This document shows positions 39,136 through 64,000 of a stretch of DNA of 64,000 bases, piece by piece; position 1 is the stretch's first letter; every line of letters starts with the position of its first letter. Source of the stretch: Trypanosoma brucei (taxonomy: Eukaryota). The stretch spans positions 1,000,673 to 1,064,672 of the forward strand of contig AL929603.2 in assembly GCA_000002445.1 (NCBI GenBank), given 5' to 3'. Below the pieces are notes generated by a model that saw nothing but the letters and a program-made list of their open reading frames with translations, was not told where the DNA came from and ran no database searches. Position numbers and translations under genes: made by a program.

Positions 39136-40122
39136 ATGAAGGTTGTTATTGTAGAGTTAGTGATTTCATTATTGCTTGTAGTTTACGTTTGTGGGGCGGA
39201 AGAAGACGGTACTTGCAGGTTGGTGGCAGATTCTGGGGGACACTCACACTTAAATGAGTCCGTTTGCTATCTCAGTTGCCTTTCGAGTGCGTTGAATAAA
39301 TTATACACTGATGGTGAGAGGAAAATGCTTGTGAATGAGGAAGTATATGCAAATGCGTCTCGTATACTGGATGATATGGAAGGTAAAACAGGTGAAAGCA
39401 CAGAGTATTTGAGTGTTATCAGCGGTGTAATGGAAAGTGAACATGATAAATTGGAAAAGCTTATAACTTATGGAAATGAAATGGGAGATTTTGTAGCTAA
39501 GGCAGGTGGATTATTTGCTGAGGTTAATGAGAGTGTGAGGGAAGTGAGGAAAGTATTACCCAGTGCCCTCATGGAAGCAAATAAATACTATGCAGCCATT
39601 GCTGAGATTACAAGAACTCTTTGGGATGATGCTAAGGCGGTGAAGAGCGACGATGAGGAAGTCTTACAGTGTAGAAACGGGAAAATTATAAGTACAGGGG
39701 AGTTTGCAGTCAAGTGTAGCGCCCATACGTGTCCACTAGAAGCCAATGTGACAGAGAGTAACCTCAAAATGTACAAGGATGGCTGTCTCGAAATAAATGT
39801 AATGGGTGGTTCTGTTAGCAAATGCTTCAATTTACCAAGGAATAACTTGTATATAAGCGGTGCAAGAATTAATTCGAGTGGTGTGTTGGAATGGTTTGAA
39901 AACGGTGCCTCCTTTTTTCGACTTATAGTCAAGGTTCAGGACATCTTCGCACCCCTTATCGCACCTTTTGCAGCCGGGAAACCGCCCTCTGTACTTCTTA
40001 CAAAGATGACAAATATCACTTCCCTTTACTCTCAATTTAACAAAGTTCACAACAACTTTACTTCGCTGCTGCTCGAAAACAATATCACTGGGAATGTGAA
40101 TAAAACAAGATCAAGCTTCTAA
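39136..40122 (+). CDS. Secreted glycoprotein, member 3 of the ~325-aa paralog family.
   Basis: A 328-aa ORF with the conserved LNESVCYLSCLSSALNKLYTDGERKMLVNEEVYANASRILDDMEGKTGES block. Its 3' flank is homologous to the 3' flanks of 21184 and 32445. Confidence 0.7.
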   Translation: MKVVIVELVISLLLVVYVCGAEEDGTCRLVADSGGHSHLNESVCYLSCLSSALNKLYTDGERKMLVNEEVYANASRILDDMEGKTGESTEYLSVISGVMESEHDKLEKLITYGNEMGDFVAKAGGLFAEVNESVREVRKVLPSALMEANKYYAAIAEITRTLWDDAKAVKSDDEEVLQCRNGKIISTGEFAVKCSAHTCPLEANVTESNLKMYKDGCLEINVMGGSVSKCFNLPRNNLYISGARINSSGVLEWFENGASFFRLIVKVQDIFAPLIAPFAAGKPPSVLLTKMTNITSLYSQFNKVHNNFTSLLLENNITGNVNKTRSSF

Positions 40123-41473: not shown

Positions 41474-43957
41474 ATGCTGGCCACATCAAGGTGGTGCCAG
41501 GGTCCAGTACCCCGTATCATCGGGGGAAGCCAAGAGCCAGCAGCGTTCCTTTCATGGGGAACAATGCTTTGCTTCGGCTACGGCATCATACAGCACAGGG
41601 ATCAGCAGCGTCTTGCTGGGACACCGTTTTTCATTTGTTGGTCCCTGGGCACGTGCCAGCGTGCCATCAGCAGTATCATCCGCACTAAGATGCTGCTGTC
41701 CGGTGATGTGGAAGAGAATCCCAGCCCGTCGTTGCGCGGGATGCAGTGGAACTGCGCCGGGCTATCTCAAGGAAAGAGATTAGCACTCCACAAAACCCTT
41801 GTTGATGAGCGGATCGCCTTTTGTCTGTTGAGCGAGACAAGGATGACGCCTGGAGAGGCGGCTTGCTTTAGCGTTGCTGGCTGCCAACATCACGGAAAAG
41901 CTCGTAACTGCAAAGGAGGTGGTGTATCAATACTAGTGAGGGAGGACCTACCAATCGAGACAGGTATGGCTGTTGTTGGTCGCATTGAACAAGTGCATGC
42001 AACAATTCACCTTGCACGTGAAACGGCACTGACCGTCACGTCGGCATACATCCCACCAAAACACACCTTCACGGCAACTGACCTAGATACGCTTCTTACG
42101 ACTGACGGTGCCCAGCTCATCGGTGCAGACGCTAACGCACACGCGTTGGCATGGGATCGCGCGAGCCCACCAAATACCAAGGGTGAAACCCTCACACAGT
42201 GGTGCATTGACAACCAGTTTCTGGTCTGCAACACTGGTGAGTGCACCAGGTACGCGCGCCACCACGGGGAGTCCACCCCTGATGTGACACTGTCAAGGAA
42301 TTGCACAGTGTACACGTGGACATCGCTGTATTCTCCCGATAGCGATCACCATCACATATTTTTCGACGTTATCGTTGGAGACGACACAGATGCACTGAGT
42401 TGCCCGCAGCTTCGAAAGCCCATGTACGCATGGCTAAAAGCTAACTGGAGGAATTTCCGTCTCAAGGTTGACGAGCTCTGCAGGAAAATTGGCAGAGAGA
42501 AGAACGTCAACACCCTGGAACAGAAATTGAGCTCCGCCATCCGCACTGCGACGAAGGTCTCCGTCCCCCGTGGCTGCAGAGCAACGCCACCACATTGGAC
42601 ACCTGCGCTCGCGAAACTCGATGAAGAGATCGCTGGATGCGGACCCTCCTACCGAAGGGAAAAGTTGGTAGCCACGCGTAAGCAGATCCTGGACCGTACC
42701 ACAAAGAAGAGATGGAGCACGCTATGCTCCAGACTTGCGGTGTCAGACCGCTGCAGTTGGCACATTGTCAAGAAGGTATATGCGCCACGACCACTAACCA
42801 CACTGACGGTACTGGTTGATAACGTGGCCATCACAGACTACCGTCAAGCTGAGAGGTTCAGTAAACTGTACTTGTCCCGCGCAAGAAGGCACCCCGACTC
42901 ACACCCACCGGCACCAATAAAGACGATAGCGAGTGAGTTCAGTCCCATCACGATGGCTGAACTACGGAGATCGATCAAACTGCTTCCGAGTGGATCCGCA
43001 GCCGGACCTGATTGCTTACACAACGAGGCACTGCAACATCTCGGTAGAACAGCGCTGAATGTTGTTCTGAGGCTATTCAATGAGAGCCTACGAGCGGGAG
43101 TCGTGCCGCCTGCATGGAAGACTGGTGTTATCATCCCCATCCTGAAGGCCGGAAAAAAGGCGGAGGACCTCGAATCTTACAGGCCTGTGACGCTCACGAG
43201 CTGTCTCTGCAAAGTCATGGAACGCATAATTGCCGCGAGGCTTAGAGACACTGTTGAGTCCCAGCTGACGCCGCAGCAATCAGGCTTTCGCCCCGGATGC
43301 TCAACGCTCGAACAACTGCTGCACGTCCGCGCTGCCCTCTGCCGTCCCACGCACCAATATCGTACGGGTGCTGTATTCGTTGACTACGAGAAGGCATTCG
43401 ATACAGTAGACCACGACAAAATTGCGAGGGAAATGCACATAATGAAGGTATCACCCCACATTGTGAAGTGGTGCGTATCATTTCTGAGTAACCGAACTGG
43501 CAGAGTGAGATTCAAGGAGAAGCTTTCCAGAAGCAGAACATTTGAGCGAGGAGTGCCACAAGGAACTGTCCTTGGCCCAATCATGTTCATTATTGTCATG
43601 AACTCGTTGAGCCAACGCCTTGCAGAAGTGCCGTTACTGCAGCACGGATTCTTTGCAGACGACCTGACGCTACTTGCGAGACACACAGAGAGGGATGTCA
43701 TCAACCACACACTACAATGCGGTCTAAACGTGGTGTTACAGTGGTCAAAAGAGTACTTCATGTCTGTCAACGTAGCGAAAACGAAGTGCACACTCTTCGG
43801 GTGTACAGAGCGCCACTTCCTTACATTGCAACTGGACGGCGAAAGAATAGGAGCTGACAGGACACCGAAGCTTCTAGGAGTAACATTCCAGTGTCTGCAA
43901 GGGATGGGAACACATGCGGCCGAAACGAGATGCAAGATGGACTTCAGACTACTGTAG
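41474..43957 (+). pseudogene. ingi ORF fragment: endonuclease plus reverse-transcriptase domains, 827 aa, terminated by an in-frame stop.
   Basis: RT palm motifs include YRPVTLTSCLCKVMERI, VFVDYEKAFDTV and GFFADDLTL. The next ORF at 44042 is in the same frame. Confidence 0.75.
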
Positions 43958-44041
43958 ATAGCAGCCATCTCAGCTTCTACATGGGGGCCAAGACGATAAG
44001 TACTGAGAGCTTTTTATCTAGCACTCGTACAGGCACACACC

Positions 44042-46450
44042 ATGTATGGCATTGAGGTATGGTACTGGGACGCTTCGGAACGAAGTCGCGACCTCCTTGC
44101 ATCAGCACAACACAAAGCCAGTTGCATCATAGCTGGCATACCACATGGGACGCGCAAAGAGGACTCTCTGCTGGAAGCAAACATCCTGCCACTCAAGACG
44201 GCCACTCTTGTGCGCAGCATGAAATTCGTGCTGATGTGTGAGTCACGAGGCGGATGTTTGCGGCGCAGTGCTGAAGAAGTATACCACAGCAAACACCCAG
44301 TCAGAGCCCTACATTCCCGCATCATGCGGTCCTATCCCCACCTCCGCATTGAGCCACGCGAGAACCCACTAGAGACATCGACGCTCCGCCACAGCTGCCG
44401 ACCGCTATTTCACACGCAGATAAAGCCTGTGTGCGCTGGTGACCCTGACGATGTCAAAAGGGAGGCTTCCGAAAAGTGGATTGAACGGCATTTTGCACGG
44501 AGGGGGAAGGAGCCACCGCGGCGAGAGCACTACGAATTGTGGACTGATGGATCCGTGTCCCTCGGTGAGAAGTCCGGAGAAGCTGCCCTTCTCTATAGAA
44601 ACAACACGCTGATTTGCGCACCCAAAACTGGAGCAGGGGAACTCTCATGCAGTTACAGAGCGGAATGCGTAGCATTAGAGATAGGACTGCAACGGCTGCT
44701 GAAATGGCTTCCGGCATACAGAAGCACACCGAGCAGGTTGTCCATCTTCTCTGACTCGCTGTCAATGTTAACAGCACTGCAGACAGGCCCCCTAGCCGTA
44801 ACGGACCCAATTCTGAGACGACTATGGAGGCTTCTGCTTCAAGTTCAGAGAAGGAAGTTGCGTATCCGACTGCCATTTGTGTTTGGCCATTGTGGCGTGA
44901 AACGGAATGACGTTTGCGATGACATGGCGAAAAAGGCCACTGATTTACCACAGTTGCGAGACACATTGATCCCCGACATCATTGCTTATGCGAAGCGAGT
45001 GATTAGGTCGGAAGAAGTCCATGAGAACACTCATAGGTTTGGTATCACGGGAAACCACTTTCCAACAAAACATAAAGAAGAACTGACGAGGGAAGAAGAA
45101 ACGGCACTGGCACGCTTTCGAGTTGGGTCTTCAAGACACTATGGATGGATGTTGCGAAAGATCAACCCGAGTGTGCCTCCACAGTGCCGATGGTGCAACC
45201 CGCAACATGCAGAGATAGGGCCAACAATACAAACGGCCCCAACTGTTGCGACACACACTCTTCAGAGAACCTCCGAACCAACTAAATGTACGGAATGTGA
45301 TGCCACATACCAATGCCGCTCGAGTGCTGTAATGCATATGGTAAACAAACATGGCTTTGTGCGAGCTGATGCCCTCCGGAGGATCAAATACGGCGATGCA
45401 ACACCCGCAGTGGACATCCCCCCGGAGCCCCCTCCAGTGGTGGCGATCGTTCCTCTACCATCGAGCACACGAGTCCCAATGAGACCGCAGGTGCTTCATT
45501 GTACCCTTCTGTGCCTCCAAATTCGCAGTGCCAGGCCGACTATTACACCACCTTAGAACAATACATGGCATAGGCAGCGGTAGTTGCCGCGTGAAAAGGG
45601 GGCGAGAGAACGAAGACTCATTGCAAGGAGATGGTAGAGCCCCAGCAGCGCCAGCCTCTCAGGATACACGGAAGCTGCCGTTTCAATGTGACCTGTGCGA
45701 GGCGAGCTTCGGTACACGTTCTTCCCTGTCACTACACAAGAAATTCAAACATAAAAGCATAGTGACGGAGGACGGTAACTTTGTGGCGGTGGTGCAATTC
45801 CCTCGTAAGCGTGCCCGTGAGGGAAACGTTGACGTCCCGGGGAAAGGCGAGGTGCAGTGTGGTGTGTGCCAAAAAGTGCTCAGTTGCAGGGACTCCCTCA
45901 TCCGACACTGCAAGGCTTTCTATAAAGGTGAGGAAGTCGAACTTAAATACAGCAAGAGCACAAAATTGTGTGCCACTGATTCCCCGCATACAAACGCATC
46001 CATGTTGGTTTGCCCGACATGCGGGAGGCGTGTGCTAGCAAAACTGGCCTCACCCTACATCAAAAGAAGATGCACGGTATGAAGGTAGAGCGCGCTGTTA
46101 CCAGCCAACGCGGCGACTGCGAAGAAACGTCGCTGCACTTGATGAGCTGTCCCGGTTTGAAGGAGTTACGTGTCAGGTTTGCGGTAGAAGGCGTGTGTGT
46201 GCAGGATGTATGTTTCTCTAAAAGGCTGGCGCAGTTTCTCATTGCGGTTGAACGGAGCCGGCCGCAGGTGAAGTCCTCACCTAAGGTAACAGTCATACAA
46301 CCCACTCTCCCTTCTGCAACTTCCCCCCTTATTGCCGAGTGTGGAGCTAGCAGGAAAAGCACCGGACGCAGGAATAGTCCAGACACCCTTAGAGACAGAG
46401 GGGGTATGCAATCAACAAGCAACAGAAACAGAAAGAGGGAGAGAGAATAA
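44042..46450 (+). pseudogene. ingi ORF fragments: RNase H and C2H2 zinc-finger region, split by two frameshifts.
   Basis: RNase H D/E/D signature residues are present. Three CxxC...HxxxH fingers are present. The frame changes at about 45528 and about 46010. Confidence 0.7.
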
Positions 46451-49189: not shown

Positions 49190-49300
49190 ATCACAGTATT
49201 AGTATATACACACTCACAACACCATCCTATCATTATTATTATAACCATAACTAATATGCACGAAATAAACAAAATAATATTAATTATAATAAGACCCATT
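49190..49300 (-). repeat. Single 70-bp repeat unit in minus orientation.
   Basis: The reverse complement reads ..ataatgataggatggtgttgtgagtgtgtatatac.., matching the core of the 70-bp array at 59.7-60.5 kb. Confidence 0.6.
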
Positions 49301-49496
49301 TTTAATACCCTATTACTATATTTTTTGAAACCCACATGCCACTTTTATATACACATTACTAAATGTATCATTTTAAAATTTTTCTTAAATTTTTATATTT
49401 TCTCAAAGTTTTAAAAAAAGTATTAAAATATTCTTATAAAATAGCAGAATCTCATAAATTTCATAAGATTGAGCATAACGCTTTTACCAATAATTC

Positions 49497-50912
49497 TTAA
49501 AAGTCACACGCTAGAATAAAAAACGCAAGCCAAAGAGGAGCCTTTTTAATGACAAAAGAATTGCTTCCTGTGGTGTTTGTGGTTCCGGTTTTCTCTTTGT
49601 TTTCATCCTCTCCCTTCTTTTTTGGTGTGCAAACTCCCTCTACCATAACGCAAATCCTTGTGCAGTCGGTTCCATTTTTGTCACTGCATTCCTTATTTTG
49701 TTCTTCTTCAGCATTTTTGTTTTTAGTTTCTTTTTCCTCCTCACTTTTTAATTCTTTTAGCAGTAGTCTTGCTACGGAGTCGCCAAGTTGTCTCATAGTT
49801 GTGACGCTGTTTAGTGCTGTATTTTGTTCCTTGCCATCGCCGGTTACGGGGACTTTAATATCGTCGACTAGTTGCCACACGTTAGTGGCGAGCTTTTCGC
49901 CTGTTTGACCATATGCATCCTTTGTGGCGGCTTGGGCCTGCTGATCTCCTGTATCTATCGATTCTTTGTCGTACAGCCGCAATAGCGCCTTTGTTGCTAG
50001 TTTGCCGAATACTTGTGTTCCGGACAATGCTGAGTACTCCCTTAGATCTTTTGAGCATGACTGGTTTTGTAGCAGCTGTTTTGCGGCTGTGAAGTTGGCG
50101 TTTACTTTCTTTAGTAGGTCGCCTGTTATTTTTAGTGGCGTGACCTCGAGATTGATGCCGTTCTCTAGGCTCGTCCCAAGTCTGCTGGCTGCTGTCCCTT
50201 GATTTTGTGCTGGCCCGCCTGTGAGCTCTAGTTCGACGAAGCCATTTTCTGCTATCTGCGTGCTGTGGCAGCTGGCTGCGCCGTTGTGCGTGCATTTGTA
50301 GACGACTTTTAAGGCGTATGCTTGCTCCGGCAGCGCCGGCTGTTTCGCTTCGGTTGCTTTATCTATTTGCAGTAGGTCTTCACTGTCAGTCAAGCTTGGA
50401 CACGGCTTGTCGTCTCGTGCCGCGAGTGCCGACGGCGTCGGGAGCTGTGCGAACGGTGTGCCGCCCGTTGCTGTTACTTTGAACCGTCTTGACGTCGCCG
50501 TCATCGCATCCATAATCTTCCACGAGCGGGTCAGCTGATTTACGCCTTCCGTTAGGTCTTTCGTTTGTTTCTGTAGCTTGTCGGGAAGGTCTGCACATTC
50601 TTCAAGGATTTCCCCGCCGGCCGCTATTACAGGCACAAGCTTGCGTTTTAGGTTGGCGTCACCTACTGTTGCCGCCACAATAAGTTTGTTGTAGTTTTCG
50701 TGGTTGCTTCGCTGTTGGCTGGCTGCCGATGCGTACGTAATTTCATACAGATTTAAGCGTTTGTGAGTGCGAGCGATGCACGCGCACAGGTTTGCGCATG
50801 CCGCGTCGTCCGCCGGCTTTTCCGTTTGCGCGCGCCGTGATGTACTTAGGACCATTATCCCTATTAATACCTGTTGCGGCAATGTCATGGTTTTGTCTAG
50901 TGCTGTTTCCAA
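49497..50912 (-). CDS. VSG: Variant surface glycoprotein (VSG), full length, 471 aa.
   Basis: Has a signal peptide and a helical N-terminal domain with early Cys (ACANLCACIARTH). The C-terminal domain has the VSG cysteine pattern CSDKNGTDCTRICVMVEGVCTPKKKG. The GPI signal is NTTGSNSFVIKKAPLWLAFFILACDF. A 16-mer-like element lies in the 3'UTR just downstream. Confidence 0.9.
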   Translation of the reverse strand: METALDKTMTLPQQVLIGIMVLSTSRRAQTEKPADDAACANLCACIARTHKRLNLYEITYASAASQQRSNHENYNKLIVAATVGDANLKRKLVPVIAAGGEILEECADLPDKLQKQTKDLTEGVNQLTRSWKIMDAMTATSRRFKVTATGGTPFAQLPTPSALAARDDKPCPSLTDSEDLLQIDKATEAKQPALPEQAYALKVVYKCTHNGAASCHSTQIAENGFVELELTGGPAQNQGTAASRLGTSLENGINLEVTPLKITGDLLKKVNANFTAAKQLLQNQSCSKDLREYSALSGTQVFGKLATKALLRLYDKESIDTGDQQAQAATKDAYGQTGEKLATNVWQLVDDIKVPVTGDGKEQNTALNSVTTMRQLGDSVARLLLKELKSEEEKETKNKNAEEEQNKECSDKNGTDCTRICVMVEGVCTPKKKGEDENKEKTGTTNTTGSNSFVIKKAPLWLAFFILACDF

Positions 50913-52554
50913 GCTTGGGCTGCAAAAAAAAAAATGGCGGACGGTGTGAACAATCTTGCTGCTTACAGGTAAACTTCGTCGTTTGCCTTTGTTTTCAAAA
51001 AAATTACAAAGCTTATTTCACTCTTCCACGTTGGTGCGTAGTAGTGACTCAGCTTTAGGTGCCACCGATCTCACCATTTCTTATTTGTACTTAGGGTGCT
51101 TCGCTTTTGCCGAGCAGCATGCACGTTTATTTAGTATCATTTTTCACGTGCTGCCCTAATTAAGCGTCGCCGGTGTTGGAGGGCTTCGTTCTTCTGCGTA
51201 CTTTGCTAGTTTTAATTTCACGACAAAGTCCTTGTTAGATATTTACCTCCGATTGCCATTCAATCTTAGTTGTCTCAATTACGATTGTATTCTCTTCCAC
51301 TCTTCTCTCCTCTCCTTTATTTACTCTGCAACAATCTGGTCCCTCCAAGAATGCGCATCTGCGTTGTGTTTTTCTTCCGTTCTGGAAATTTTGTAAAAAT
51401 GCAGATGGTTTAGTTCATTTATTTTCATGTGAGCGCCAATTGGTCTTTTATTACTGTACTTCTTATTTTAAGCTATTTCGATATCTATTGTGCCTGTCGT
51501 ATCTAGCCGCTATTCCATTCATTTGGATCTTTAAAATTACGTATATGTTAGGACACCTAAAACATTTAACGCTTTTTTGTTTCAGTGGCCTCTAGTACGC
51601 TCCACTTGCATCTGGCTGCATGTCGCTGAAATGACGACATTACTCTGAAGATTCTGTCACATGACCGACCTTGTATATTTTTAGTTGTTTTTTGTCACAA
51701 GCTTACTCTGCTTCTCTTTCATCCATTTGAAGCTTTGGATATGATTTTGCCTTTCACCCCTTTTTCTTTGTTTGTGTCTCCGTGGCAGCTTTGCATTACC
51801 GAGAACTCTTACCTGAATTGGACGATCTAAGGACGTCCTAAACTGCTAGCACTTGCACCAATAGCGCAGAAATGGGTTTCTCTTGTTAATTCCCGCCACT
51901 TTGACAACCACCCTGACAGCTTATACATTGGGTATTTTAGGCAAATCCCCAGAATTTTTGTTTTTCTTCTTCTTCTGCTCTCCACGCTAACTCATTATAA
52001 GCCACAGTTTGAAAATGTTACTTTGAATAATATTATATTGTTTGCCACAAAGTGTTCGTCATTATTTATATATCTAATAAAAAACTTAGGTATTACCTCA
52101 CATATACGAAAAACCCTCTTCCTCATGTTGCCTTTGCTTCTTCACCGCTTATCACTATGATTCACAAGCATTTTAAAAAACATAGACTATACTGTCATCA
52201 CCGCAGTAGCATCCATAGATATTTTAAGTAAATCACAGAGAAACATTGACAATTCCTCTTCCTTCTGATGCACTATCTGCTTTTTCCTCTTCCGCCCCTA
52301 CCTCTGTGGATAGCCTAGCGACTTTCTCTTTCCTATAAAATAAACTTCCTTTTTGCGACTATCCCCTCTATCATCTCCTTGTGCGTATTACCATCAAAAT
52401 AATGCAGTATGAAACTCCGCACATATCATCTTCATCATTTCCGTCTTTTTAGCTTCCCTTTACTAACCTTCCTCTTCCTTAATGTCTCACTCGCTAACTT
52501 TCATTGCATTCCTTTTATTGTTTTAAGTGCGTCTATTTTGGCTTCCTATTGGGC

Positions 52555-52655
52555 TGCTACCACAACTCTTATCATATATTCGTATATATACACACTCACA
52601 ACACACTCCTCTATCATTATTATTATAACCATAGCTAATTTCAATAAAACAAACA
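52555..52655 (-). repeat. Single 70-bp repeat unit in minus orientation, upstream of the VSG at 50912.
   Basis: tatatacacactcacaacacactcctctatcattattattataacc is the reverse-complement form of the 70-bp core. It lies about 1.65 kb 5' of the VSG start, the usual co-transposed-region spacing. Confidence 0.55.
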
Positions 52656-53039
52656 AAACAAATATAATTAGAAACTTTAAAAATAGTTCTTATTTTTCTC
52701 ACCCTGTTATCCCATTACTTTACACCCATAGTCCTCTATTATGCATATTATAAAAAAAGTTTATTTTTTCAAATTCGAAAAATTATCAAATTTCTCAAAG
52801 ATCTTACAGAAGTTTTAAAATATATAAATTTTATTAAATTCTCTTTATATAGCAAACTGTTTCAAAATTAAAAATTTTCATAATTATATAAAATAAATAA
52901 AACATAATATTCTTAAAATCTTATAATTCTAAAGTGCTACAAAACTCACGAAAAAAGTAGTCATACTCAGAGCCAATTTGTTATTGACGAGAAAACTTCC
53001 ATTTCGGCACATTTCTTTATCCTGTTCAGGGTTTTAACT

Positions 53040-54500
53040 TTTACCTTTTCTCTAGCCACAAACAGGGCTTAATTTTTCAACATTTTCTTCTTACGAGTTG
53101 CTCTATCATTGTGGAAAGTATAGGTAACAGTAAGTGTTCCTGAATTTTGAGCTTGTGTTACAGGGAATCTGCTTTTTGAAACTTTTGATTCATTAAATTT
53201 GCACTTTTTAGTTCTGTCGGTTTCTGTTTCGTTGTAACTGCAGAAAGGCTTGTTGTTGCATTCTACTACGTCCTTAATTTTATTTCAGATGTTTTCTGGT
53301 GCTTTAGTATCTTTGCCTTGTTTTGCTTCGTAAAGTTCCTTGCTAAGGCTGGCGAATTTGATTGCGGCTTGCAGCTCATAATAGCTAACGAGTTCGGCTA
53401 GTTCATCGCTTTGCCTTGTCGTACCGAGCTTTGCTGCGCTTGTGCGACCTGCGGCGCCGCTGGGGATGTCTTCTGCAATCACTAGGTCGTTTATGTCTTT
53501 GTCTACTGTGCTCTTGTGGCCGCCAAATGCTGTCTTGACTTCAGTTTCTACGGCACACTTGGTTGCATCTCTATTGCTCAGCAAAACATTTTTGATGACT
53601 TATGTTAGTGCGGGCCTCTGTGATAGCCTGTCAGTTTCATTTGTGAATTCACCGGCTGTCCGTGGCTGTTGGCGCTGACTTCTGACTGTCGGCTTCCGCG
53701 GCCCAAGCTGTCGCTTTGCCTTCATTGCCGCCTTCGACCGCGTCTCTGTTGCGCATTGTCGGCTAGGAGTTGCCGGCCAGTAGAGTTAGGTAGCCATCCA
53801 GTATCTCTACAGTTGCTGCAGCGCACTGTCCTCCGTTCATGAACCCGGTTGTGCCGTGAGCTGCTGGTAGATTGCACTTGTTTTTTCCCGTTGGTGCCCT
53901 GTATTTGAGTCTTACGTGTCTCCCGGTTTGCCGAACACAATACCTTTTAAGCCGGTGACACCTAAAAATTCGCTTGTTGTGCCGCCCGCTTGGAGGGATG
54001 TTAGTTTTGTGTTGCAGTCATACTTGCAGAGCTTTCCGTGTTTACGATCTGAACCCGCTGTATCCGAGTCGTTTTCAACTAGACACGCATTGTTGTTTCC
54101 ATTCGCTCCTTCTAGGAGGTTAAGGTACTCGTCGATGCGCCCTTTCAGGTGGGTGGCCGTGCGCACCGTGTCTATTTGCTTTTGGACTACGGTTTCTTTT
54201 TACACAGCTGCTGCTCTCACCGCTTTTACGCTGTAATATGCTCGCAAAGCTGCTATCGCCTTGGTCTTTTGATGCTTTAGGTTTTTAGCGGTAAAATCTC
54301 CGTTCACGGCGGCATCGCCGAGTTCCTTCCAAACGGCCAGGACGCTGTCGAGAGATTTTAGTATCCCGTTGTTTTTGGTGTTAAGTTCGTCAGTTAGGCC
54401 GCATAGAGGCTCCCACACCTTCTTTAGCAGTCCATGTTTCTTTGTTGCGTGGACCACTGCAGGCAGCGTCAGCAGCGTGACAAAAAGTTTTATCTTGAAG
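53040..54500 (-). pseudogene. VSG pseudogene: frameshifted, with no start codon and a non-canonical C-terminus.
   Basis: Minus-strand fragments 54200..54457 (..TLLTLPAVVHATKKHGLLKKVWEPLCGLTDEL..), 53912..54166, 53722..53940 and 53285..53584 are VSG N-terminal-domain-like. A VSG-type C-terminal domain is readable at 53230-53045 (CNNKPFCSYNETETDRTKKCKFNESK...) but ends ..TFHNDRATRKKKMLKN instead of a GPI signal. Confidence 0.75.
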
Positions 54501-55379
54501 TATGTGCGTTTCGAATACGTAGCAGTTAAGCCTTTTTACCAAAGCCAGCTACTCTTTTTTTTCTTCACCAAAAGAACATTAAAAATGCGTTTAAGTATTT
54601 CTATTAGACACTTATTGGCATTGAAAATTTATAGAAAGGTCCACAGCCACCGGATAAAAGTGCTCTTTTTCTCCTTATTGGTGATGTTTCTGCCATATTG
54701 TAACAGATAACGGGTCCTATCCAAGTTTCTAATTATGTGGTTTCGAGTTCGCCGCCACTATCCTTTGTTAAAAAGTTGTACTATGTCCTCTTGAATGCGG
54801 CACCAGCCCTGGCGTTAAAAGAAATATCGTTCAGTGCATCTGTCCCTTCTCTCCGACTTTGCGGTGTGTGTTAGCATTATTCTCATTGTTTCTCAAACTC
54901 ACAAAAAAAAGCATTTACATTTTGCATTCTATGAGTAGAGAGTTTCTGACGCGTCTCGTAACACCCAGTGATTCACGAAGGTGCTGCATCTCTTTCCTAC
55001 CACTTCAGATGGGGATACACCATTAGATTTAAAAGCATAGCAAAAGCATAATCTCTTGTTGTTACAGCCGTACTTTTGCTCTGTTTTTCAGCCCGACTGC
55101 TTTATACAAAGCTTTTTTCACTGTATATACCGTTGCGACTCCGTTTCTCCTGTACACTGCATTCTGTTTCCCCCTCATTGTCATCTCCGTCGGTTCCTCG
55201 ACTAAAATGATGGCCATCGTTATATTTGTGTTTTAAACTGAACATGTTCCGTCTCCATAACACTTTATGCATGTCTATTAATAATAATATTTCTTGTCCT
55301 ATGCCTGTTTGTTATATATCACCCTAACCATTATTTTAGCTGTTTATATTTGTACGATTCATTTTTTCCAACACCCATA

Positions 55380-55470
55380 TTAAAAAACTTGTACATACAC
55401 ACTCACAATACTTTCCTATCACTACTACTTTACACACTCACGTTACTATTATTCACATATAAAATATTTC
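55380..55470 (-). repeat. Single 70-bp repeat unit in minus orientation, downstream of the VSG 3'UTR and upstream of the VSG pseudogene.
   Basis: The reverse complement reads ..gtgataggaaagtattgtgagtgtgtatgtac... Confidence 0.6.
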
Positions 55471-55511
55471 ATATTTACCAAATTTGCACTTTTTTACAAA
55501 GCTTTACAAAA

Positions 55512-55528
55512 GTGTTAAAATATATAAA
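55512..55528 (-). promoter_or_regulatory. VSG 3'UTR 16-mer-like element (TTATATATTTTAACAC on the minus strand, one mismatch to the conserved TGATATATTTTAACAC).
   Basis: Lies about 45-60 nt downstream of the stop of the VSG at 55570. A more diverged copy sits at 52812..52828 (TTTATATATTTTAAAAC). The 16-mer consensus is recalled from the VSG mRNA-stability literature. Confidence 0.45.
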
Positions 55529-55569
55529 TTTAGCATATTTTGTAAATATCACAAAACTGAGCAAAATTC

Positions 55570-57183
55570 CTAAAAGTCTTTACAATTCTGAAATGCTTCC
55601 AAACTAAAAAATGCAGCAGCTATCAGAGCCAATTTATTATTTACAATAAAGCTACAAAGGCTGTGCTTTTCTTTTTCTGGCTCATCTTCACTTTCTTTTC
55701 CCTTTCTGAATGCGCAATTTTGTTTATCCCCCGTTTTGTCATTTTCACAAGCTGTCTCGTCAGTGCCGTGTTTTGCACACCAAGCTGAAGCTGCTCTCTC
55801 TTTCTTTTGATCTCCTGCAGTTCCTGTTCCTGTTCCTGCTGCTGCATTTGTTTGTCCTTCTCCATCTTTAGGTTTGCAGGGACCATCTGTTTCAGTTTTT
55901 CCTTGCCATTTGCAGTTAGCCTCTGTGCATGCAGTTTTATTGCTTTTTTGTTGTTTGCATCCTTCTTTATCTTCTTTGGTCTTTGAGCTTAAGCTCTTTG
56001 TCTCGACGGTTGTGGGGGGTTCTGTTAGCGCTGTCGCACAAGCATACGCTGCTTCTCGTTCTGCTTTTAGTTGGTGGTTTATATTTTTTATCGCCGCGGC
56101 CGCCGCTTCCCGTAGCTGTAGGTCTTGGGCGAGGTTTACAAGTTTCACTACCCATGGGATGTCCGTGAACTTTTTGTCGCCCTTCCCCGTGAAATCGCTG
56201 TATTTGACGCATACCCCCGCGTCTGAGCTTCCGTCGCAGTTGCTTTTGGTTACTGTTTTGCCGAGGAAACCGGCGTTGTTAAGTTTGACTACCATGCTGT
56301 TCAGTTCTCTTATCGGAGTTAGGAGCGCATCGGCACTGATCACCGCTCCGTCGTCGTCTGGGCATTCGCCGGCTAGCTGTGTCCACACTCCTAAGGCCGG
56401 GGGTGCCGCCGTTGTCCAGGTCGTTGTTACAGTTTGGCCAGATATGCAGGCTCCGCCCGGTTGGTTTGCGGCTGCTTCGGCGCATACGCACATTAGCGTC
56501 GCGGCTGCTGTCGTTGCTGGGTGGTTGGCGATGTTTCCACCGCAGGCATTCGAGCGTCCGCTGTTGGCGCCTCCTGAGAAAGTTTTTGCTATTGTGACAC
56601 TTGCTTTATTACCGACGTCATCCCCCAACACCGCGTCTTTAAGCTTCTTGGGGTAATCAGCTGCTGTTGGTTTTGCTGCTGCTGCTGAGTATTGTTTTCC
56701 TTCTGTTAATAGGGCCTGCGCCCGTGCTAAGTGTGCTTGGACTCTCATTTGTGCTGCCCATCTTCTTCCGGGCGTAAGGTTGTTGAAGCCTGCTTCTTTT
56801 ATTCTTGTAGCCGCTGCTGTGTCCGGCCGCGTGGCTTTGTAAGCTAGAACCCATTGTCGCCATTTGTTGTGCCAGTCCTTAGCGATATTGTCGTCCGTTA
56901 CGTTAGCCTTTGTTTTCATCTCCTCTAGGGTGTCTGTGACTTCGGCTTTTGCAAATTTTGCTTGCCATGTTGCTGGGCTTAGACTGATGTTTAGTTCTTC
57001 CATTTCTGTGACAGCTGCCGTGTTTAGCGTCGCGTGCGGTCCTAGCGCTGGTGATTTTTCCGCAAGGGCCACAAGCTTGCACAGTTGTCGGAACACTGCT
57101 CCGTTGTCGGCCGGTCCGACGTCGCTAGTGGCTTGTTTGGCTGAGAGGAAAAGTGCCAGGAAAAGAAATACCGGCAGTAGCAT
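55570..57183 (-). CDS. VSG: VSG, 537 aa, with an aberrant C-terminal extension. It may be a nonfunctional or archive copy.
   Basis: Has a signal peptide MLLPVFLFLALFLSA, an N-terminal VSG domain with an early Cys (FRQLCKLVALAEK), and a C-terminal domain cysteine pattern (CKPKDGEG...CAKHGTDETACENDKTGDKQNCAF). Its GPI-signal-like end is SLCSFIVNNKLALIAAAFFSL, but it continues EAFQNCKDF past the expected stop. Confidence 0.85.
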   Translation of the reverse strand: MLLPVFLFLALFLSAKQATSDVGPADNGAVFRQLCKLVALAEKSPALGPHATLNTAAVTEMEELNISLSPATWQAKFAKAEVTDTLEEMKTKANVTDDNIAKDWHNKWRQWVLAYKATRPDTAAATRIKEAGFNNLTPGRRWAAQMRVQAHLARAQALLTEGKQYSAAAAKPTAADYPKKLKDAVLGDDVGNKASVTIAKTFSGGANSGRSNACGGNIANHPATTAAATLMCVCAEAAANQPGGACISGQTVTTTWTTAAPPALGVWTQLAGECPDDDGAVISADALLTPIRELNSMVVKLNNAGFLGKTVTKSNCDGSSDAGVCVKYSDFTGKGDKKFTDIPWVVKLVNLAQDLQLREAAAAAIKNINHQLKAEREAAYACATALTEPPTTVETKSLSSKTKEDKEGCKQQKSNKTACTEANCKWQGKTETDGPCKPKDGEGQTNAAAGTGTGTAGDQKKERAASAWCAKHGTDETACENDKTGDKQNCAFRKGKESEDEPEKEKHSLCSFIVNNKLALIAAAFFSLEAFQNCKDF

Positions 57184-59408: not shown

Positions 59409-59641
<233 letters not shown>

Positions 59642-59699
59642 AAATATAATAATAATATTAATATTATAAATAATAAAATGATCATAATGATGGTAATAC

Positions 59700-60527
59700 A
59701 ATAACTAGCAGAGTGTGTCGTGAGTGTGCATATACGAATATACTATACGAGCAGTAATGATAATGATAATGATAATGATAGGAGAGTGTTGTGAGTGTGT
59801 ATATACGAATATTATGATGAGAGCAGTAATAATAATAATGATGATGATGATAATTATAATAGGAGAGTGTTGTGAGTGTGTGTATACGAATATTATAATA
59901 AGAACAGTAATAAATATGATGATGATAATAATAACAGGAGAGTGTTGTGAGAGTGTGTATATACGAATATTATGATGAGAGCAGTAATAATAATAATGAT
60001 GATGATGATAATTATAATAGGAGAGTGTTGTGAGTGTGTATATACGAATATTATAATAAGAACAGTAATAAATATGATGATGATAATAATAACAGGAGAG
60101 TGTTGTGAGAGTGTGTATATACGAATATTATAATAAGAGCAGTAATAATGATGATGATGATAATGATAATAATAGGAAAGTGTGGTGAGTGTGTAGATAC
60201 GAATATTATAATAACACCAGTAATAGTAATAATAATAATAGGAATGTGTTGTGAGTGTGTGCATATACGAATATTGTAATGAGAGCAGTAATAATGATAA
60301 TAATAATAGGAGAGTGTTGCGAGTGTGTGTATACGAATATTATAATAACACCAGTAATAGTAATAATAATAATAATGATAATAGGAGAGTGTTGTGAGTG
60401 TGTGTATACGAATATTATAATAAGAACAGTAATAATAGTAATGATAATGATAGGAGAGTGTTGTGAGTGTGTATACACGAATATTATAATAAGAGCAGTA
60501 ATAAATATGATGATGATAATTATAATA
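59700..60527 (+). repeat. Tandem array of about 11 T. brucei-type 70-bp repeats (70-84 bp units) in + orientation, toward the telomere. The assembly gap truncates it.
   Basis: The repeated unit is (TAA/TGA)n ATAGGAGAGTGTTGTGAGTGTGTATATACGAATATTATAATAAGAGCAGTAATAA, with variants ggaaagtgtggtgag and ggaatgtgttgtgag. Confidence 0.9.
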
Positions 60528-60627
60528 NNNNNNNNNNNNNNNNNNNNNNNNNNNNNNNNNNNNNNNNNNNNNNNNNNNNNNNNNNNNNNNNNNNNNNNNN
60601 NNNNNNNNNNNNNNNNNNNNNNNNNNN
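60528..60627. other. Assembly gap: a run of 100 N.
   Basis: Direct read. Confidence 1.
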
Positions 60628-60690
60628 AGGATTAGGATTAGGATTAGGCTTAGGATTAGGATTAGGATTTTGGTTACTCGGTTAGGGTTA
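60628..60690 (+). repeat. Variant telomere-like hexamers, (TTAGGA)~6 with one TTAGGC, degrading into ..ggttactcggttagggttaa.
   Basis: Direct read: aggattaggattaggattaggcttaggattaggattaggattttggttactcggttagggttaa. Confidence 0.85.
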
Positions 60691-60899
60691 ATTTTTTCCT
60701 CTTTTTTTTAAGTCATTTTTTAGTCATTTAGTGATGCAAGGGCTCTTTTCTTATATTTTGCGGCGGCGCTGGCAATGCGGTTTTTAAGTCTTTTTTTATT
60801 AACGACAGGTTGCTGATTTCTTAATTCACTTTCTTAATTCATTTTTTTTAATTTTCGGTTTGTCGCGGGTTTGTGGTTATTTATTTTAAATTTTCTTTA

Positions 60900-63436
60900 A
60901 CCATGCAGCGGCTGTTTTATTATGCGAACCCTAACCCTCCTCGCCCCCCGCGCCCGCACGCCCTCCGCGGGGACTCCAGTCTTTATTCACGATTTATTAT
61001 TTTTTTTTAGCGCAAGCACCTCCACTTTTTTTGTCGCCCTGACACTTAATTTTCATTTTTCATTTCGAATTTTTTTCACTTGTTTATTTAAATTGTTAAT
61101 TTTTCTTTAACCATGCACCAGCTGTTTTATTATGCGAACCCTAACCCTCCTCCCCCAACGCACGCACCCCGCGCCACACCTCCAGTTTTTTTAATTTTTA
61201 ACATCGGTTTTCGCGTTTAGTTCTTTTTAAATCTTGTCTTTTTTGTTTTGAATTTGAATTTTAATTTTTTTGTATTTTAATTTTCCGAAGTTTTGATTTT
61301 AATTTTTTTACAACCACAACTGCGAACTTTTTTTTGTCTTCTTGGTTTTTCGAATTTTTTTTTGACACCGCCTTTTTTTTGTTTTCAATCTTTTTAGTTT
61401 TTTTTCAGTTATTTTCTTTAATCCTTTTTTTTATTTTTCGAATTGTTTTTCGGTTTTTTGCGCGGTTTGTGGTTAGTTTTTTTAATTAGTGATGCAGCTG
61501 CAATTTTATTATGCGGACCCTAACCCTCCTCCCCCCCCGCCCCACGCGCCCCCCGCGCACGCAGCTCCAGTTTTTTTTCATGATTTATTATTTTTTTTAG
61601 CCATTCACGGCTCATTTTTTTTTCGCTCTGACGTTCAATTTTTTTTTTGTTTTTTTTAATTTTTTAAAAAAGTGATGCCGCGGCTCGATTTTACATTTAT
61701 TTTTTTGTATTTTAATTTTTTCGAATTTTTCGGTTTGAATTTTTTTTCTTTAGCCGTGCAGCGGCTGTTTTATTATGCGAACCCTAACCCTCCTCTCCCC
61801 CCCGCCCCACGCGCCCCCCGCGCACGCAGCTCCAGTTTTTTTTTTAGAATTGTTTTTTCGTGATTCTTTTTTAGATATTTCCAATTTTGCAATGCACGAA
61901 TTTTTTTTTAGCGCGGCTTTCCACGGCACTTTTTTTAACCCTTTTTTTCACTCTTCATTTTTGTATTTCGTTTTTTTTCTATTTTCCGAGTTTTTGAATT
62001 TTTTTTAGGGCTAGGTTTTTTTAAAGGTTTTTAGATTTTTTCTTTAATCCCTTTTTTGTTTTCTTTCTTTTGCGCGGTTTTTTTTGCGTTCATTTTTGGC
62101 CTTTTTTCGAATTTTTTTGTTTTTATTTTTGACCCCCGCCGAAACTTTTCGTTTAATTTTTTATTTTTTAAAATTTTTAAAAATTTTTTGTTTTAGCGCT
62201 CAATTTTTTTTTACGACCATTTTTGTTCGAAGCACACAAAGCGGTGTTTCGGGTTAGCGGGTTCGGGTTAGGGTTAATTTTTTTCATTCCAGTTTTTTTA
62301 TTCCGCAACTCTGTCCTGCGTTGTTCTGATTTTTTATTAATACTGCGGCGGCAGTTTTATCTTGCGGTGGCGTTTAATTTATTTTTTTGTGTGTTATTTA
62401 AATTTTTTTTTAAATGATGCAGCTGCAATTTTATTATGCGGACCCTAACCCTCCTCCCCCGCCCCCCGCCCGCGACCCACGAGAAGCTTTTTTTAAATTT
62501 TTAATTTTAATCCTTTTTTTTGTATTTTGATTTTTTCGAATTTTTCGGTTTGGTTTTTTTTTGCACCACTTTTCAATTTTTTAATTTTTTTAAAAGTGAT
62601 GCAGCGGCTCTTTTATTATGCGGAGCCTAACCCTCCTCCCCCCCGCACGCGCCCCCCGCAAACGCACCTCTTTTTTTTTAAATTTTTTTTAGCGCGTCCT
62701 TCAACCACAATTTTTAACCTTTTTTTTATTTTCCGACTTTTTAAATTTTATTTTTTTTGTTTTTTGAGTTTTTCGAATTTTTCAGTTTGTGGTTAGTTTT
62801 TTTAATTAGTGATGCAGCTGCAATTTTATTATGCGGACCCTAACCCTCCTCCCCCCCCGCACACGCACCCCCCGCGCAACCACCTCCAGTTTTTTAAATT
62901 TTAAATTGTTTTTTTTGTTTTGAATTTGAATTTTTTAATTTTTTAAAATTTTTTTTTAATTCAATTTTTAAATTTTTAATGACGATGCAGCGGCTATTTT
63001 GTTATGCAAACCCTAACCCTCCTCCCCCCCCCGCGCACGCCCTCGCACGCGCACCTGTTTTTTTTAAATTTTTTGGTTTTTTTTTCGCGGTTTGATTTTT
63101 TTTTTGTATTCTTGACTTTTTCGAATTTTTTTGACCTCAATGTTTTTAGATTTTCAGATTTTTCGAATTTTCTATTTTTAAACTTTCCGTTTTTTTTGGT
63201 TTTAATATTTAAATTTTTGATTCTTTTTTTTTATTTTTGCGAGATTTTAATTTTTTTTATATTTTTGAGTTTTTGTTTTTTTTTAACGAGCGCCAGCAGT
63301 TTATTTATATGTTTTTTTTTATTTTTGATCCCCGCCGAATCGTTTCGTTCAATTTTTTATTTTTTATTTTTTTAAATATTTTAAAATTTTTTGTTTTAGC
63401 GCTCAACTTTTTTTTTTTGCGGCCATTTTTGTTCAA
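60900..63436 (+). repeat. T-rich subtelomeric higher-order repeat with eight copies of a ~60-bp core carrying an inverted telomere hexamer pair.
   Basis: The core is GTGATGCAGC(G/T)GCnnTTTTATTATGCG(G/A)ACCCTAACCCTCCTCCCCCC..CGCxCACGCAxCTCCAGTTTTTT. Copies lie near 60905, 61115, 61490, 61755, 62415, 62600, 62810 and 62990. An interstitial seed ..gggttagcgggttcgggttagggttaa sits at 62248-62290. The segment 62130-62290 is duplicated at 63320-63480. Confidence 0.85.
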
Positions 63437-64000
63437 AACGGAACCCGCTGTGTGACGGGTTCGGGTGTTTCGGGTTAGCGGGTTCGGGTTCGGGTGTTTC
63501 GGGTTAGCGGGTTCGGGTTAGGGTTAGGGTTAGGGTTAGGGTTAGGGTTAGGGTTAGGGTTAGGGTTAGGGTTAGGGTTAGGGTTAGGGTTAGGGTTAGG
63601 GTTAGGGTTAGGGTTAGGGTTAGGGTTAGGGTTAGGGTTAGGGTTAGGGTTAGGGTTAGGGTTAGGGTTAGGGTTAGGGTTAGGGTTAGGGTTAGGGTTA
63701 GGGTTAGGGTTAGGGTTAGGGTTAGGGTTAGGGTTAGGGTTAGGGTTAGGGTTAGGGTTAGGGTTAGGGTTAGGGTTAGGGTTAGGGTTAGGGTTAGGGT
63801 TAGGGTTAGGGTTAGGGTTAGGGTTAGGGTTAGGGTTAGGGTTAGGGTTAGGGTTAGGGTTAGGGTTAGGGTTAGGGTTAGGGTTAGGGTTAGGGTTAGG
63901 GTTAGGGTTAGGGTTAGGGTTAGGGTTAGGGTTAGGGTTAGGGTTAGGGTTAGGGTTAGGGTTAGGGTTAGGGTTAGGGTTAGGGTTAGGGTTAGGGTTA
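63437..64000 (+). repeat. Telomere: a degenerate transition (gggttc / gggtgtttc / gggttagc) into about 85 perfect GGGTTA (= TTAGGG) hexamers running off the window end.
   Basis: Direct read. The G-rich strand runs 5' to 3' toward the window end, as expected for a right chromosome terminus. Confidence 0.97.

What the first reader, a model, noticed from the sequence alone, without database searches (positions are those of the whole stretch)
55570..57183. VSG with read-through of its GPI-signal terminus (..AAAFFSLEAFQNCKDF)
The C-terminus looks like a normal 17/23-aa GPI signal (SFIVNNKLALIAAAFFSL). The expected stop is missing, and nine extra residues follow. The neighbouring VSG (49497..50912) also ends with an extra ..ILACDF. 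Both are therefore probably unusable as complete genes. They are available as N-terminal-domain donors for segmental (mosaic) gene conversion.
Basis: partly seen in the sequence, partly recalled or inferred. Interest (0 to 1): 0.5.

Follow-up and report, generated by a model that had tools for sequence, protein, structure and literature searches.

The report
Known atypical VSG gene, damaged tail
This is an already-annotated silent surface-coat (VSG) gene at the end of Trypanosoma brucei chromosome 1 whose membrane-anchor signal is damaged, a common and well-described state in the parasite's archive of antigen genes, so it is ordinary.

Summary
The ORF at 55570..57183 (-) is real. It is 100% identical to CAJ16740.1/XP_001219221.1/Q4GY50, which NCBI names "variant surface glycoprotein (VSG, atypical), putative", T. 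b. brucei TREU927. The window is a chromosome end: ESAG-like genes, an ingi retroposon, three inverted VSG sequences, a 70-bp repeat array and a GGGTTA telomere.

The details need correcting. By homology the lost stop is a TAG that became CAG (Gln532), so six residues (QNCKDF) are added, not nine. A second, larger anomaly was missed. The C-R-N motif carrying the GPI attachment (omega) Asn is H-S-L here, so the tail is not a normal signal plus extras.

Over-long tails are common: 14 of 71 related VSGs from several strains have them. The neighbour's tail is 4 residues longer than its 17-residue class, but that gene is annotated as an ordinary putative VSG and its stop aligns with canonical stops. 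"Unusable" is therefore not supported for the neighbour.

Use as an N-terminal-domain donor through 3' donation is the published general model. It is not shown for this gene, which has no upstream 70-bp repeat in its own orientation. Already known; low interest.

The parts
55570..57183 (-). Intact 537-codon VSG ORF (stop TAG at 55570..55572). It is CAJ16740.1 / XP_001219221.1 / Q4GY50, 'VSG, atypical, putative', T. b. brucei TREU927.
   Evidence: ORF list; 100% identity and source name.
56065..57156 (-). B-type VSG N-terminal domain (residues 10-373), apparently intact, preceded by a hydrophobic N-terminal signal peptide (MLLPVFLFLALFLSA...).
   Evidence: Pfam VSG_B E 5.7e-78, profile positions 2-351 of 352. 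77% identical to Lister 427 VSG 1199. Used as a class B example in PMC10501684.
55600..55959 (-). C-terminal domain with two four-cysteine subdomains (residues 409-528).
   Evidence: Pfam Trypan_glycop_C E 1.4e-21; alignment-free comparison with 86 relatives.
55657..55665 (-). H507-S508-L509, where relatives have C-R-N. The conserved Cys and the omega Asn (GPI attachment residue) are replaced, and a Cys follows at 55654..55656.
   Evidence: Restoring CRN raises the profile score from 31 to 56 bits.
55591..55656 (-). Ancestral 22-residue GPI signal by homology (CSFIVNNKLALIAAAFFSLEAF).
   Evidence: 16/22 identical to the 22-residue signal of P0019. Signal lengths of 21-23 residues in 54 of 71 relatives.
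55588..55590 (-). CAG (Gln532) at the position of the canonical stop codon; inferred TAG to CAG stop loss.
   Evidence: DNA alignment A1 with the neighbouring pseudogene's TAG; sequence.
55573..55587 (-). The five codons after Gln532 (N-C-K-D-F), translated from what is 3' UTR in relatives. With Gln532 they make the six-residue extension.
   Evidence: Post-stop AATTATAAGATTTTAAGAAT of the pseudogene aligns with AATTGTAAAGACTTTTAGGAAT. Related read-through tails are KNSKRFF (VSG 791/1125.2114) and NCSNILRIFA (VSG 793).
55512..55527 (-). VSG 3'-UTR 16-mer with one mismatch (TTATATATTTTAACAC versus TGATATATTTTAACAC).
   Evidence: the role of the 16-mer is described in PMC5698767.
55397..55441 (-). 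Single partial 70-bp repeat downstream of this gene (that is, upstream of the next VSG in the array).
52929..54295 (-). Degenerate VSG pseudogene that keeps a canonical 23-residue signal (CRN|GSFLVNNKLALSMTTFFVSFVAL) and a TAG stop at 52929..52931. It serves as the in-window reference for the lost stop.
49497..50888 (-). Neighbouring A-type VSG (463 aa from its ATG), annotated 'VSG, putative'. Its signal is 21 residues (NSFVIKKAPLWLAFFILACDF) against 17 in its class.
59687..60527 (+). Array of about 11 copies of the 70-bp repeat, in the opposite orientation to the three VSG sequences, followed by a 100-N gap (60528..60627).
63509..64000 (+). Telomere repeats (GGGTTA)n; the window is a chromosome end.

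Best explanation
This is a silent, subtelomeric archive VSG gene of T. brucei TREU927 chromosome 1. Its N-terminal domain and C-terminal domain are intact, but its 3' end has drifted from the canonical 21-23-residue, Asn-omega GPI signal in two ways. First, the C-R-N motif holding the attachment residue has become H-S-L. Second, the stop codon TAG has become CAG, so translation runs six codons into the 3' UTR and ends the protein in a polar stretch (EAFQNCKDF) instead of a hydrophobic one. As it stands the gene probably cannot yield an efficiently GPI-anchored coat protein. If it contributes to antigenic variation at all, it does so by gene conversion in which its N-terminal-domain coding region is copied into an expression site while the C-terminal end, GPI signal and 3' UTR are kept from the resident gene ('3' donation' or segmental conversion). 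Shown here: identity, anatomy, the homology-based stop loss, the omega-motif loss, and how common such tails are. Inferred: loss of anchoring competence and the donor role.
For: Identity and the curators' 'atypical' label. Domains. Stop loss. Omega-motif loss and profile scores (31 bits versus 51-76; 56 after restoring CRN). Mean Kyte-Doolittle hydropathy of the last 10 residues is -0.42, below every canonical-length relative (0.95-3.07). Over-long tails occur in 14 of 71 relatives from Lister 427, EATRO 1125 and SCU-series genome records. Definition of 'atypical' and the note that GPI signals vary more in silent arrays than in expressed genes: PMC1868767. 3' donation is frequent and rescues damaged C-terminal regions, and a donor with an atypical GPI signal was used without its signal ever appearing in expressed clones: PMC3708902. 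Established knowledge (my memory, not tested here): the omega residue must be small (G, A, S, N, D, C).
Against: No GPI predictor and no experiment was run. Substantial changes to omega-plus residues of a VSG were tolerated (Bohme and Cross 2002, as cited in PMC11298655). Other trypanosome GPI signals are 21-32 residues long with Cys, Thr, Asn or Ser as omega, so Ser508 or Cys510 might serve as an alternative omega. The region upstream of omega and the C-terminal-domain cysteines are experimentally flexible or dispensable (PMC12226131). The donor role is not documented for this gene: no chromosome 1 donors appear in the held Hall 2013 supplement. There is no own-orientation 70-bp repeat in the 2.2 kb upstream. 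My profile was trained on tails selected with a regex that required N/S/D at omega, so part of the 25-bit deficit is circular.
Confidence: 0.72

Rival explanations
1. The gene is a fully functional VSG. The trypanosome GPI transamidase uses an alternative omega (Ser508 or Cys510) and tolerates the 28-29-residue signal with a polar end, so 'atypical' is only conservative annotation.
For: The ORF, N-terminal domain and eight cysteines are intact. VSGdb states that annotation was deliberately parsimonious. Trypanosome signals span 21-32 residues, with Cys commonly predicted as omega, and omega-plus changes are tolerated. The region upstream of omega is flexible. The 16-mer is nearly intact.
Against: With omega = Ser508, omega+2 would be Cys; with omega = Cys510, omega+2 would be Phe. 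Both are poor by general GPI rules (my memory, not tested here). The uncharged run is only 11 residues and is followed by 9 residues that include E, Q, N, K and D. No relative among about 100 carries this tail. An atypical signal was never seen in expressed clones in Hall 2013.
Confidence: 0.15
2. The gene is simply decaying and plays no part in antigenic variation. It is stranded in inverted orientation next to a telomeric 70-bp array, lacks upstream recombination homology, and its intact ORF is a matter of recent origin rather than use.
For: There is no minus-strand 70-bp repeat between 57184 and 59400, whereas each of the three VSG 3' ends has one downstream. The next gene in the array is already a heavily degenerate pseudogene. 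It is not among the donors in the held supplement of Hall 2013. No close TREU927 paralogue was found in the protein search.
Against: A 537-codon ORF with a full-length domain match has survived. A 77%-identical N-terminal domain exists in another strain (VSG 1199), so the lineage persists. Segmental conversion can use coding-sequence homology and pseudogenes.
Confidence: 0.1
3. The missing stop is a base-calling or assembly error (T read as C at 55590 on the minus strand).
For: It is a single-base difference from TAG, and there is an assembly gap elsewhere in the window.
Against: The same region carries many other substitutions relative to its relatives, about 7 within the 15 nt of the CRN region. 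Stop-to-Gln tails (...VVFQ...) occur independently in VSG 803 and VSG 1125.4096. The omega-site anomaly would remain in any case.
Confidence: 0.03

Closest known systems
'Atypical' VSG genes of the T. brucei TREU927 silent archive (GeneDB/VSGdb category; PMC1868767)
   Same: Intact ORF with recognisable N- and C-terminal domains, subtelomeric, with a GPI signal that does not meet the curators' criteria. This very gene carries that label.
   Different: Nothing of substance differs. This work only adds which changes make it atypical: TAG to CAG stop loss, and C-R-N to H-S-L.
Canonical 23-residue, Asn-omega VSG GPI signal (e.g. CRN|GSFLLNKQFALSVVSAAFVALLF in many Lister 427 / EATRO 1125 VSGs)
   Same: Same C-terminal-domain type; the same spacer and start of the hydrophobic core (SF[IL]VN[NK]KLAL...); omega+2 Ser is kept; the same 3'-UTR family with the 16-mer.
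   Different: Omega is Leu instead of Asn/Ser/Asp; His replaces Cys at omega-2; a Glu lies in the hydrophobic core; the stop is lost with six extra polar residues.
Other read-through VSG tails: Lister 427 VSG 791 / EATRO 1125.2114 (...LLVFFKNSKRFF), VSG 793 (...LFFNCSNILRIFA), VSG 803 / 1125.4096 (...VVFQVFLNYRC...)
   Same: Same C-terminal-domain class, loss of the canonical stop, and translation into the 3' UTR. Some appear to translate the same UTR family (K/Q-N-S/C-K-R/D-F).
   Different: Those keep the C-R-N (VSG 793: C-L-D) omega motif. The tails are not identical to QNCKDF, and whether any is expressed is unknown.
3' donation / segmental gene conversion of VSGs (Hall, Wang and Barry 2013, PMC3708902)
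   Same: It provides the route by which a VSG with a damaged C-terminal end can still supply its antigenic N-terminal domain.
   Different: Not demonstrated for this gene, and the usual upstream 70-bp homology is missing in its orientation.

Membership tests
T. brucei variant surface glycoprotein (VSG) | N-terminal domain of A or B type | tested here: met
   Pfam VSG_B E 5.7e-78, covering profile positions 2-351 of 352.
T. brucei variant surface glycoprotein (VSG) | Cysteine-containing C-terminal domain | tested here: met
   Pfam Trypan_glycop_C E 1.4e-21. Eight Cys in two subdomains, with the last one displaced by three residues.
T. brucei variant surface glycoprotein (VSG) | N-terminal secretory signal peptide | tested here: inconclusive
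   A hydrophobic N-terminus (MLLPVFLFLALFLSAKQ) was read directly; no signal-peptide predictor was available.
T. brucei variant surface glycoprotein (VSG) | Canonical GPI signal: 17 or 23 residues, omega Ser/Asp/Asn, omega+2 Ser, omega+7 usually Lys, hydrophobic to the C-terminus (PMC11298655) | tested here: not met
   By homology omega = Leu, and the signal is 28 residues ending EAFQNCKDF. Omega+2 Ser is kept; omega+7 is Asn, as in several relatives.
T. brucei variant surface glycoprotein (VSG) | Conserved 16-mer in the 3' UTR | tested here: inconclusive
   15/16 match at 55512..55527. The effect of the single G-to-T change is unknown; scrambling the whole 16-mer destabilises the mRNA.
T. brucei variant surface glycoprotein (VSG) | Subtelomeric location with 70-bp repeat(s) upstream | tested here: inconclusive
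   The gene lies 6.3 kb from the telomere repeats. No 70-bp repeat lies upstream in its own orientation; an inverted array lies 2.5 kb upstream.
'Atypical' VSG (VSGdb/GeneDB class) | Intact ORF without frameshift or internal stop | tested here: met
   537 uninterrupted codons.
'Atypical' VSG (VSGdb/GeneDB class) | GPI signal and/or C-terminal cysteine pattern not convincingly canonical | tested here: met
   class definition in PMC1868767; the source's own label.
VSG pseudogene | Frameshifts and/or in-frame stop codons | tested here: not met
   There are none in 55570..57183, in contrast to the element at 52929..54295.
Documented mosaic / 3'-donation donor | Its sequence found in expressed VSGs joined to another C-terminus | tested here: inconclusive
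   No 'Tb927.1.' donors appear in the held supplementary text of Hall 2013. Expressed-VSG read sets cannot be searched with these tools.

The most novel reading that the evidence does not exclude
Stop-loss tails that read into a shared 3'-UTR family recur in several strains (QNCKDF here; KNSKRFF in VSG 791/1125.2114; NCSNILRIFA in VSG 793; FQVFLNY... in VSG 803/1125.4096). They might not be mere decay. They could be a maintained class: either a working long GPI signal, or a built-in handicap that forces 3' donation and so delays when a given N-terminal domain can first appear in an infection.
Probability: 0.06. Interest if true: 0.45.

Novelty: already known. Interest (0 to 1): 0.1.

Why it matters
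It matters little beyond bookkeeping. The gene has been annotated as an atypical VSG since the TREU927 genome project, and the fate of such genes (rescue of the N-terminal domain by 3' donation or mosaic formation) is established in the literature. The small additions here are three. The exact lesions are named: TAG to CAG at 55588..55590, and C-R-N to H-S-L at 55657..55665. The neighbour should not be lumped in with this gene. About one in five related VSG tails in public repertoires are over-long, which supports the VSGdb remark that archive GPI signals vary far more than expressed ones.

Tried and rejected
(1) A homologue search with only the last 76 residues returned nothing, probably a word-index limitation, and it cost one capped search. 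(2) look-up of encoding contigs had no record for the protein, so no independent DNA copy could be compared and the TriTrypDB gene ID was not recovered. (3) The chromosome I paper (Hall et al. 2003) is not held, and Cross et al. 2014 (VSGnome) has no PMC copy listed. (4) Accession searches for the extended-tail entries (ARB50...) found no paper, so I cannot say whether any of them comes from an expressed-VSG catalogue. (5) The local profile HMM cannot penalise a C-terminal extension, so restoring the stop left the score unchanged (31.0 versus 31.6 bits). It speaks only to the omega region, and it is partly circular because the training tails were picked with a regex that required N/S/D at omega. 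(6) I first read the neighbour's tail as sharing the same read-through (TGTGACTTTTAAGAAT versus TGTAAAGACTTTTAGGAAT). MAFFT instead aligns the neighbour's true stop with the canonical stop column, and the short motif TTT[TC]A[AG]GAAT occurs twice in this UTR family, so that alignment is ambiguous and I do not claim read-through for the neighbour. (7) I rejected 'pseudogene' (no frameshift or stop) and 'chance ORF' (537 codons with two strong domain matches).

Full report
WHAT IS THERE. The minus strand of 55570..57183 carries an uninterrupted 537-codon ORF ending ...KEKHSLCSFIVNNKLALIAAAFFSLEAFQNCKDF, with the stop TAG at 55570..55572. Pfam finds a full-length B-type VSG N-terminal domain (VSG_B, E 5.7e-78, profile positions 2-351 of 352) and a VSG C-terminal domain (Trypan_glycop_C, E 1.4e-21). 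The protein is 100% identical over its whole length to CAJ16740.1 / XP_001219221.1 / UniProt Q4GY50. NCBI and UniProt name it [quoted passage not shown], on a contig of 1,064,672 bp. The closest relative is Lister 427 VSG 1199, 77% identical over the N-terminal 85%. Q4GY50 has been used as a class B example in a structural survey of VSGs, which says nothing about its tail (PMC10501684).

SETTING. The window is a chromosome end. (GGGTTA)n runs from 63509 to 64000 and is preceded by 29-bp subtelomeric repeats. A plus-strand array of about 11 copies of the 70-bp repeat lies at 59687..60527, next to an (ATA)93 tract and a 100-N gap. Further in are plus-strand ESAG-type genes: an ESAG8-like LRR protein, three ESAG1 copies and several VSG_B-domain ORFs. 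An ingi-type retroposon with endonuclease, reverse transcriptase and RNase H follows. Between the retroposon and the 70-bp array sit three VSG sequences, all on the minus strand and so pointing away from the telomere. They are the gene in question; a degenerate pseudogene at about 52929..54295; and an A-type VSG at 49497..50888. Each of the three 3' ends is followed within about 130-330 nt by a single partial 70-bp repeat on the minus strand (55397..55441, 52585..52626, 49197..49239). No such repeat lies upstream of the gene in question in its own orientation, between 57184 and 59400.

THE MISSING STOP. The pseudogene next door supplies an in-window reference. It reads ...DKEMCRN|GSFLVNNKLALSMTTFFVSFVAL, a 23-residue signal after Asn, followed by TAG and AATTATAAGATTTTAAGAAT. 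MAFFT aligns the finding's CAG (Gln532, 55588..55590) on that TAG, and its AATTGTAAAGACTTTTAGGAAT on the post-stop sequence. I also ran a search of 1.84 billion representative proteins with the last 105 residues. It gave 86 relatives, and most alignments stopped at query positions 94-99. Among the 71 relatives with a recognisable signal start, signal length is 21, 22 or 23 residues in 54 (76%). The finding's signal would be 22 residues if it ended before Gln532. The most similar canonical-length tail (P0019, GSFIVNKKLALIAVAFVSLLKF, 16/22 identical) ends exactly there. So the stop loss is real. It is best explained by a single T-to-C change (TAG to CAG), and it adds six residues (QNCKDF), not nine. 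Canonical-length relatives with Glu in that region exist (...FVSFVEF...FLEFATF).

In relatives the signal is preceded by C-R-[N/S/D]. The last of these three residues is the omega (attachment) residue, in keeping with the published description of VSG signals: omega Ser, Asp or Asn, omega+2 Ser, omega+7 usually Lys (PMC11298655). The finding has H-S-L at these three positions (55657..55665), followed by Cys. By homology the attachment residue is therefore Leu, and the fourth cysteine of the last subdomain is displaced by three residues. My regex for locating signal starts required N/S/D at omega, so the 71/71 figure is circular. Even so, among proteins with a complete in-frame tail only one other (P0044) lacked the motif, and 64 of 71 have Cys at omega-2. 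A profile built from the 54 canonical-length tails scores them at 50.9-76.3 bits (mean 65.4, SD 5.6). The finding scores 31.0 bits. Changing HSL to CRN alone gives 56.0 bits. Restoring the stop changes nothing, because the model is local and cannot see an extension. Mean Kyte-Doolittle hydropathy of the last ten residues is -0.42, against 0.95-3.07 for canonical-length tails. The 3'-UTR 16-mer is present with one mismatch. That element is essential for VSG mRNA stability (PMC5698767); the effect of this single change is unknown.

HOW COMMON IS THIS. Fourteen of the 71 relatives (20%) have signals of 25-43 residues. They come from the Lister 427 repertoire (VSG 325, 360, 791, 793, 803), from the EATRO 1125 repertoire (1125.2098.2114.3137.4096) and from SCU-series genome records. 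Some appear to translate the same UTR family as here: KNSKRFF, NCSNILRIFA. Two share a Phe-Gln junction (...VVFQ...), which suggests the same TAG-to-CAG route. This fits VSGdb's statement that GPI signals are much more varied in the silent arrays than in expressed VSGs, and that doubtful cases were conservatively labelled 'atypical' (PMC1868767).

THE NEIGHBOUR. Read from its ATG (50888), the neighbour is a 463-residue protein annotated simply 'VSG, putative', neither atypical nor pseudogene. Its class has a 17-residue signal after Ser...TTNTTG-S-NSFVI[KN]KAPLWLA[FV]LLF, as in the Swiss-Prot T. equiperdum VSG 20 entry. The neighbour's signal is NSFVIKKAPLWLAFFILACDF, four residues longer. Its omega context is intact, and its uncharged run (APLWLAFFILAC) is unbroken for 12 residues. 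MAFFT aligns its true stop with the canonical stop column. I therefore do not accept that it is a read-through or 'probably unusable'.

MECHANISM. Best-supported reading (confidence about 0.7): the gene is an archive VSG whose 3' end has drifted out of specification. It is probably not competent on its own to make an efficiently GPI-anchored coat. It is usable only if its N-terminal-domain region is copied into an expression site while the resident C-terminal end, signal and UTR are retained. That route is documented. 3' donation was seen in 57% of expressed sequences in TREU927 infections, and in 25% of those the boundary lay within the GPI-signal region alone. 42% of N-terminal-domain donors were pseudogenes. 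One donor had an atypical GPI signal that never appeared in expressed clones (PMC3708902). For this particular gene the donor role is inference only. No chromosome 1 donor appears in the held supplement, and the lack of an own-orientation upstream 70-bp repeat removes the usual 5' homology for whole-gene conversion.

Against 'unusable': omega-plus changes in a VSG were tolerated, and other trypanosome signals are 21-32 residues long with Cys, Thr, Asn or Ser as omega. The region upstream of omega and the C-terminal-domain cysteines are experimentally flexible or dispensable (PMC12226131). So the Cys-to-His change weighs little. The Leu at omega and the polar end carry the argument. That argument rests on general GPI-signal rules recalled from memory, not on a predictor or an assay.

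COMPARISON AND VERDICT. The feature is a member of a known, named category and is individually annotated as such. Nothing in its anatomy departs from what that category already covers. Novelty: already known. Interest: low (0.1). The only mildly open question is whether recurrent read-through tails are maintained for a reason, and I rate that unlikely (about 0.06).

Noticed in passing
window 59409..60627 and 60628..63508: An (ATA)93 tract and an array of about 11 copies of the 70-bp repeat on the plus strand are followed by a 100-N assembly gap. Then come about 2.9 kb of T-rich sequence with no VSG ORF or remnant before the telomere. This is an expression-site-like telomere whose VSG is either absent or lost in the gap.
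   Followed up: partly
window 49197..57183 (minus strand): Three VSG sequences lie in inverted orientation (pointing away from the telomere) between an ingi retroposon and the telomeric 70-bp array. Each has a single partial 70-bp repeat downstream of it, but the most telomere-proximal one has none upstream.
   Followed up: partly
window 52929..54295 (-): This is a heavily degenerate VSG pseudogene that nevertheless keeps a canonical 23-residue GPI signal, its stop codon and a 16-mer-like motif (TTATATATTTTAAAAC, starting at 52827 on the minus strand). Its damage is complementary to that of the intact-ORF gene next to it.
   Followed up: partly
window 20200..21183, 31473..32444, 39136..40122 (+): There are three ESAG1-family paralogues; the first scores Pfam ESAG1 at E 1.4e-116. 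They are interspersed with two copies of a Ser/Gly/Pro-rich ORF without any Pfam match (14723..15502 and 34588..35481), which suggests a segmental duplication within the ESAG region.
   Followed up: no
window 12593..13630, 17420..18796, 26574..27935 (+): These are ORFs with VSG_B-type domains but hydrophobic non-VSG C-termini. They are probably ESAG2-like or VSG-related genes rather than VSGs.
   Followed up: no
window 41474..45556 (+): An ingi-type non-LTR retroposon is split into two long ORFs (endonuclease plus reverse transcriptase, then RNase H). It separates the ESAG block from the inverted VSG cluster.
   Followed up: no
P0043, P0114 (relatives, not in the window): Two VSGs from other repertoires have tails reading ...FLIPPPQLFS..., a translation of the canonical C-rich VSG 3' UTR after stop loss or frameshift. 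This shows a second, independent family of read-through tails.
   Followed up: no
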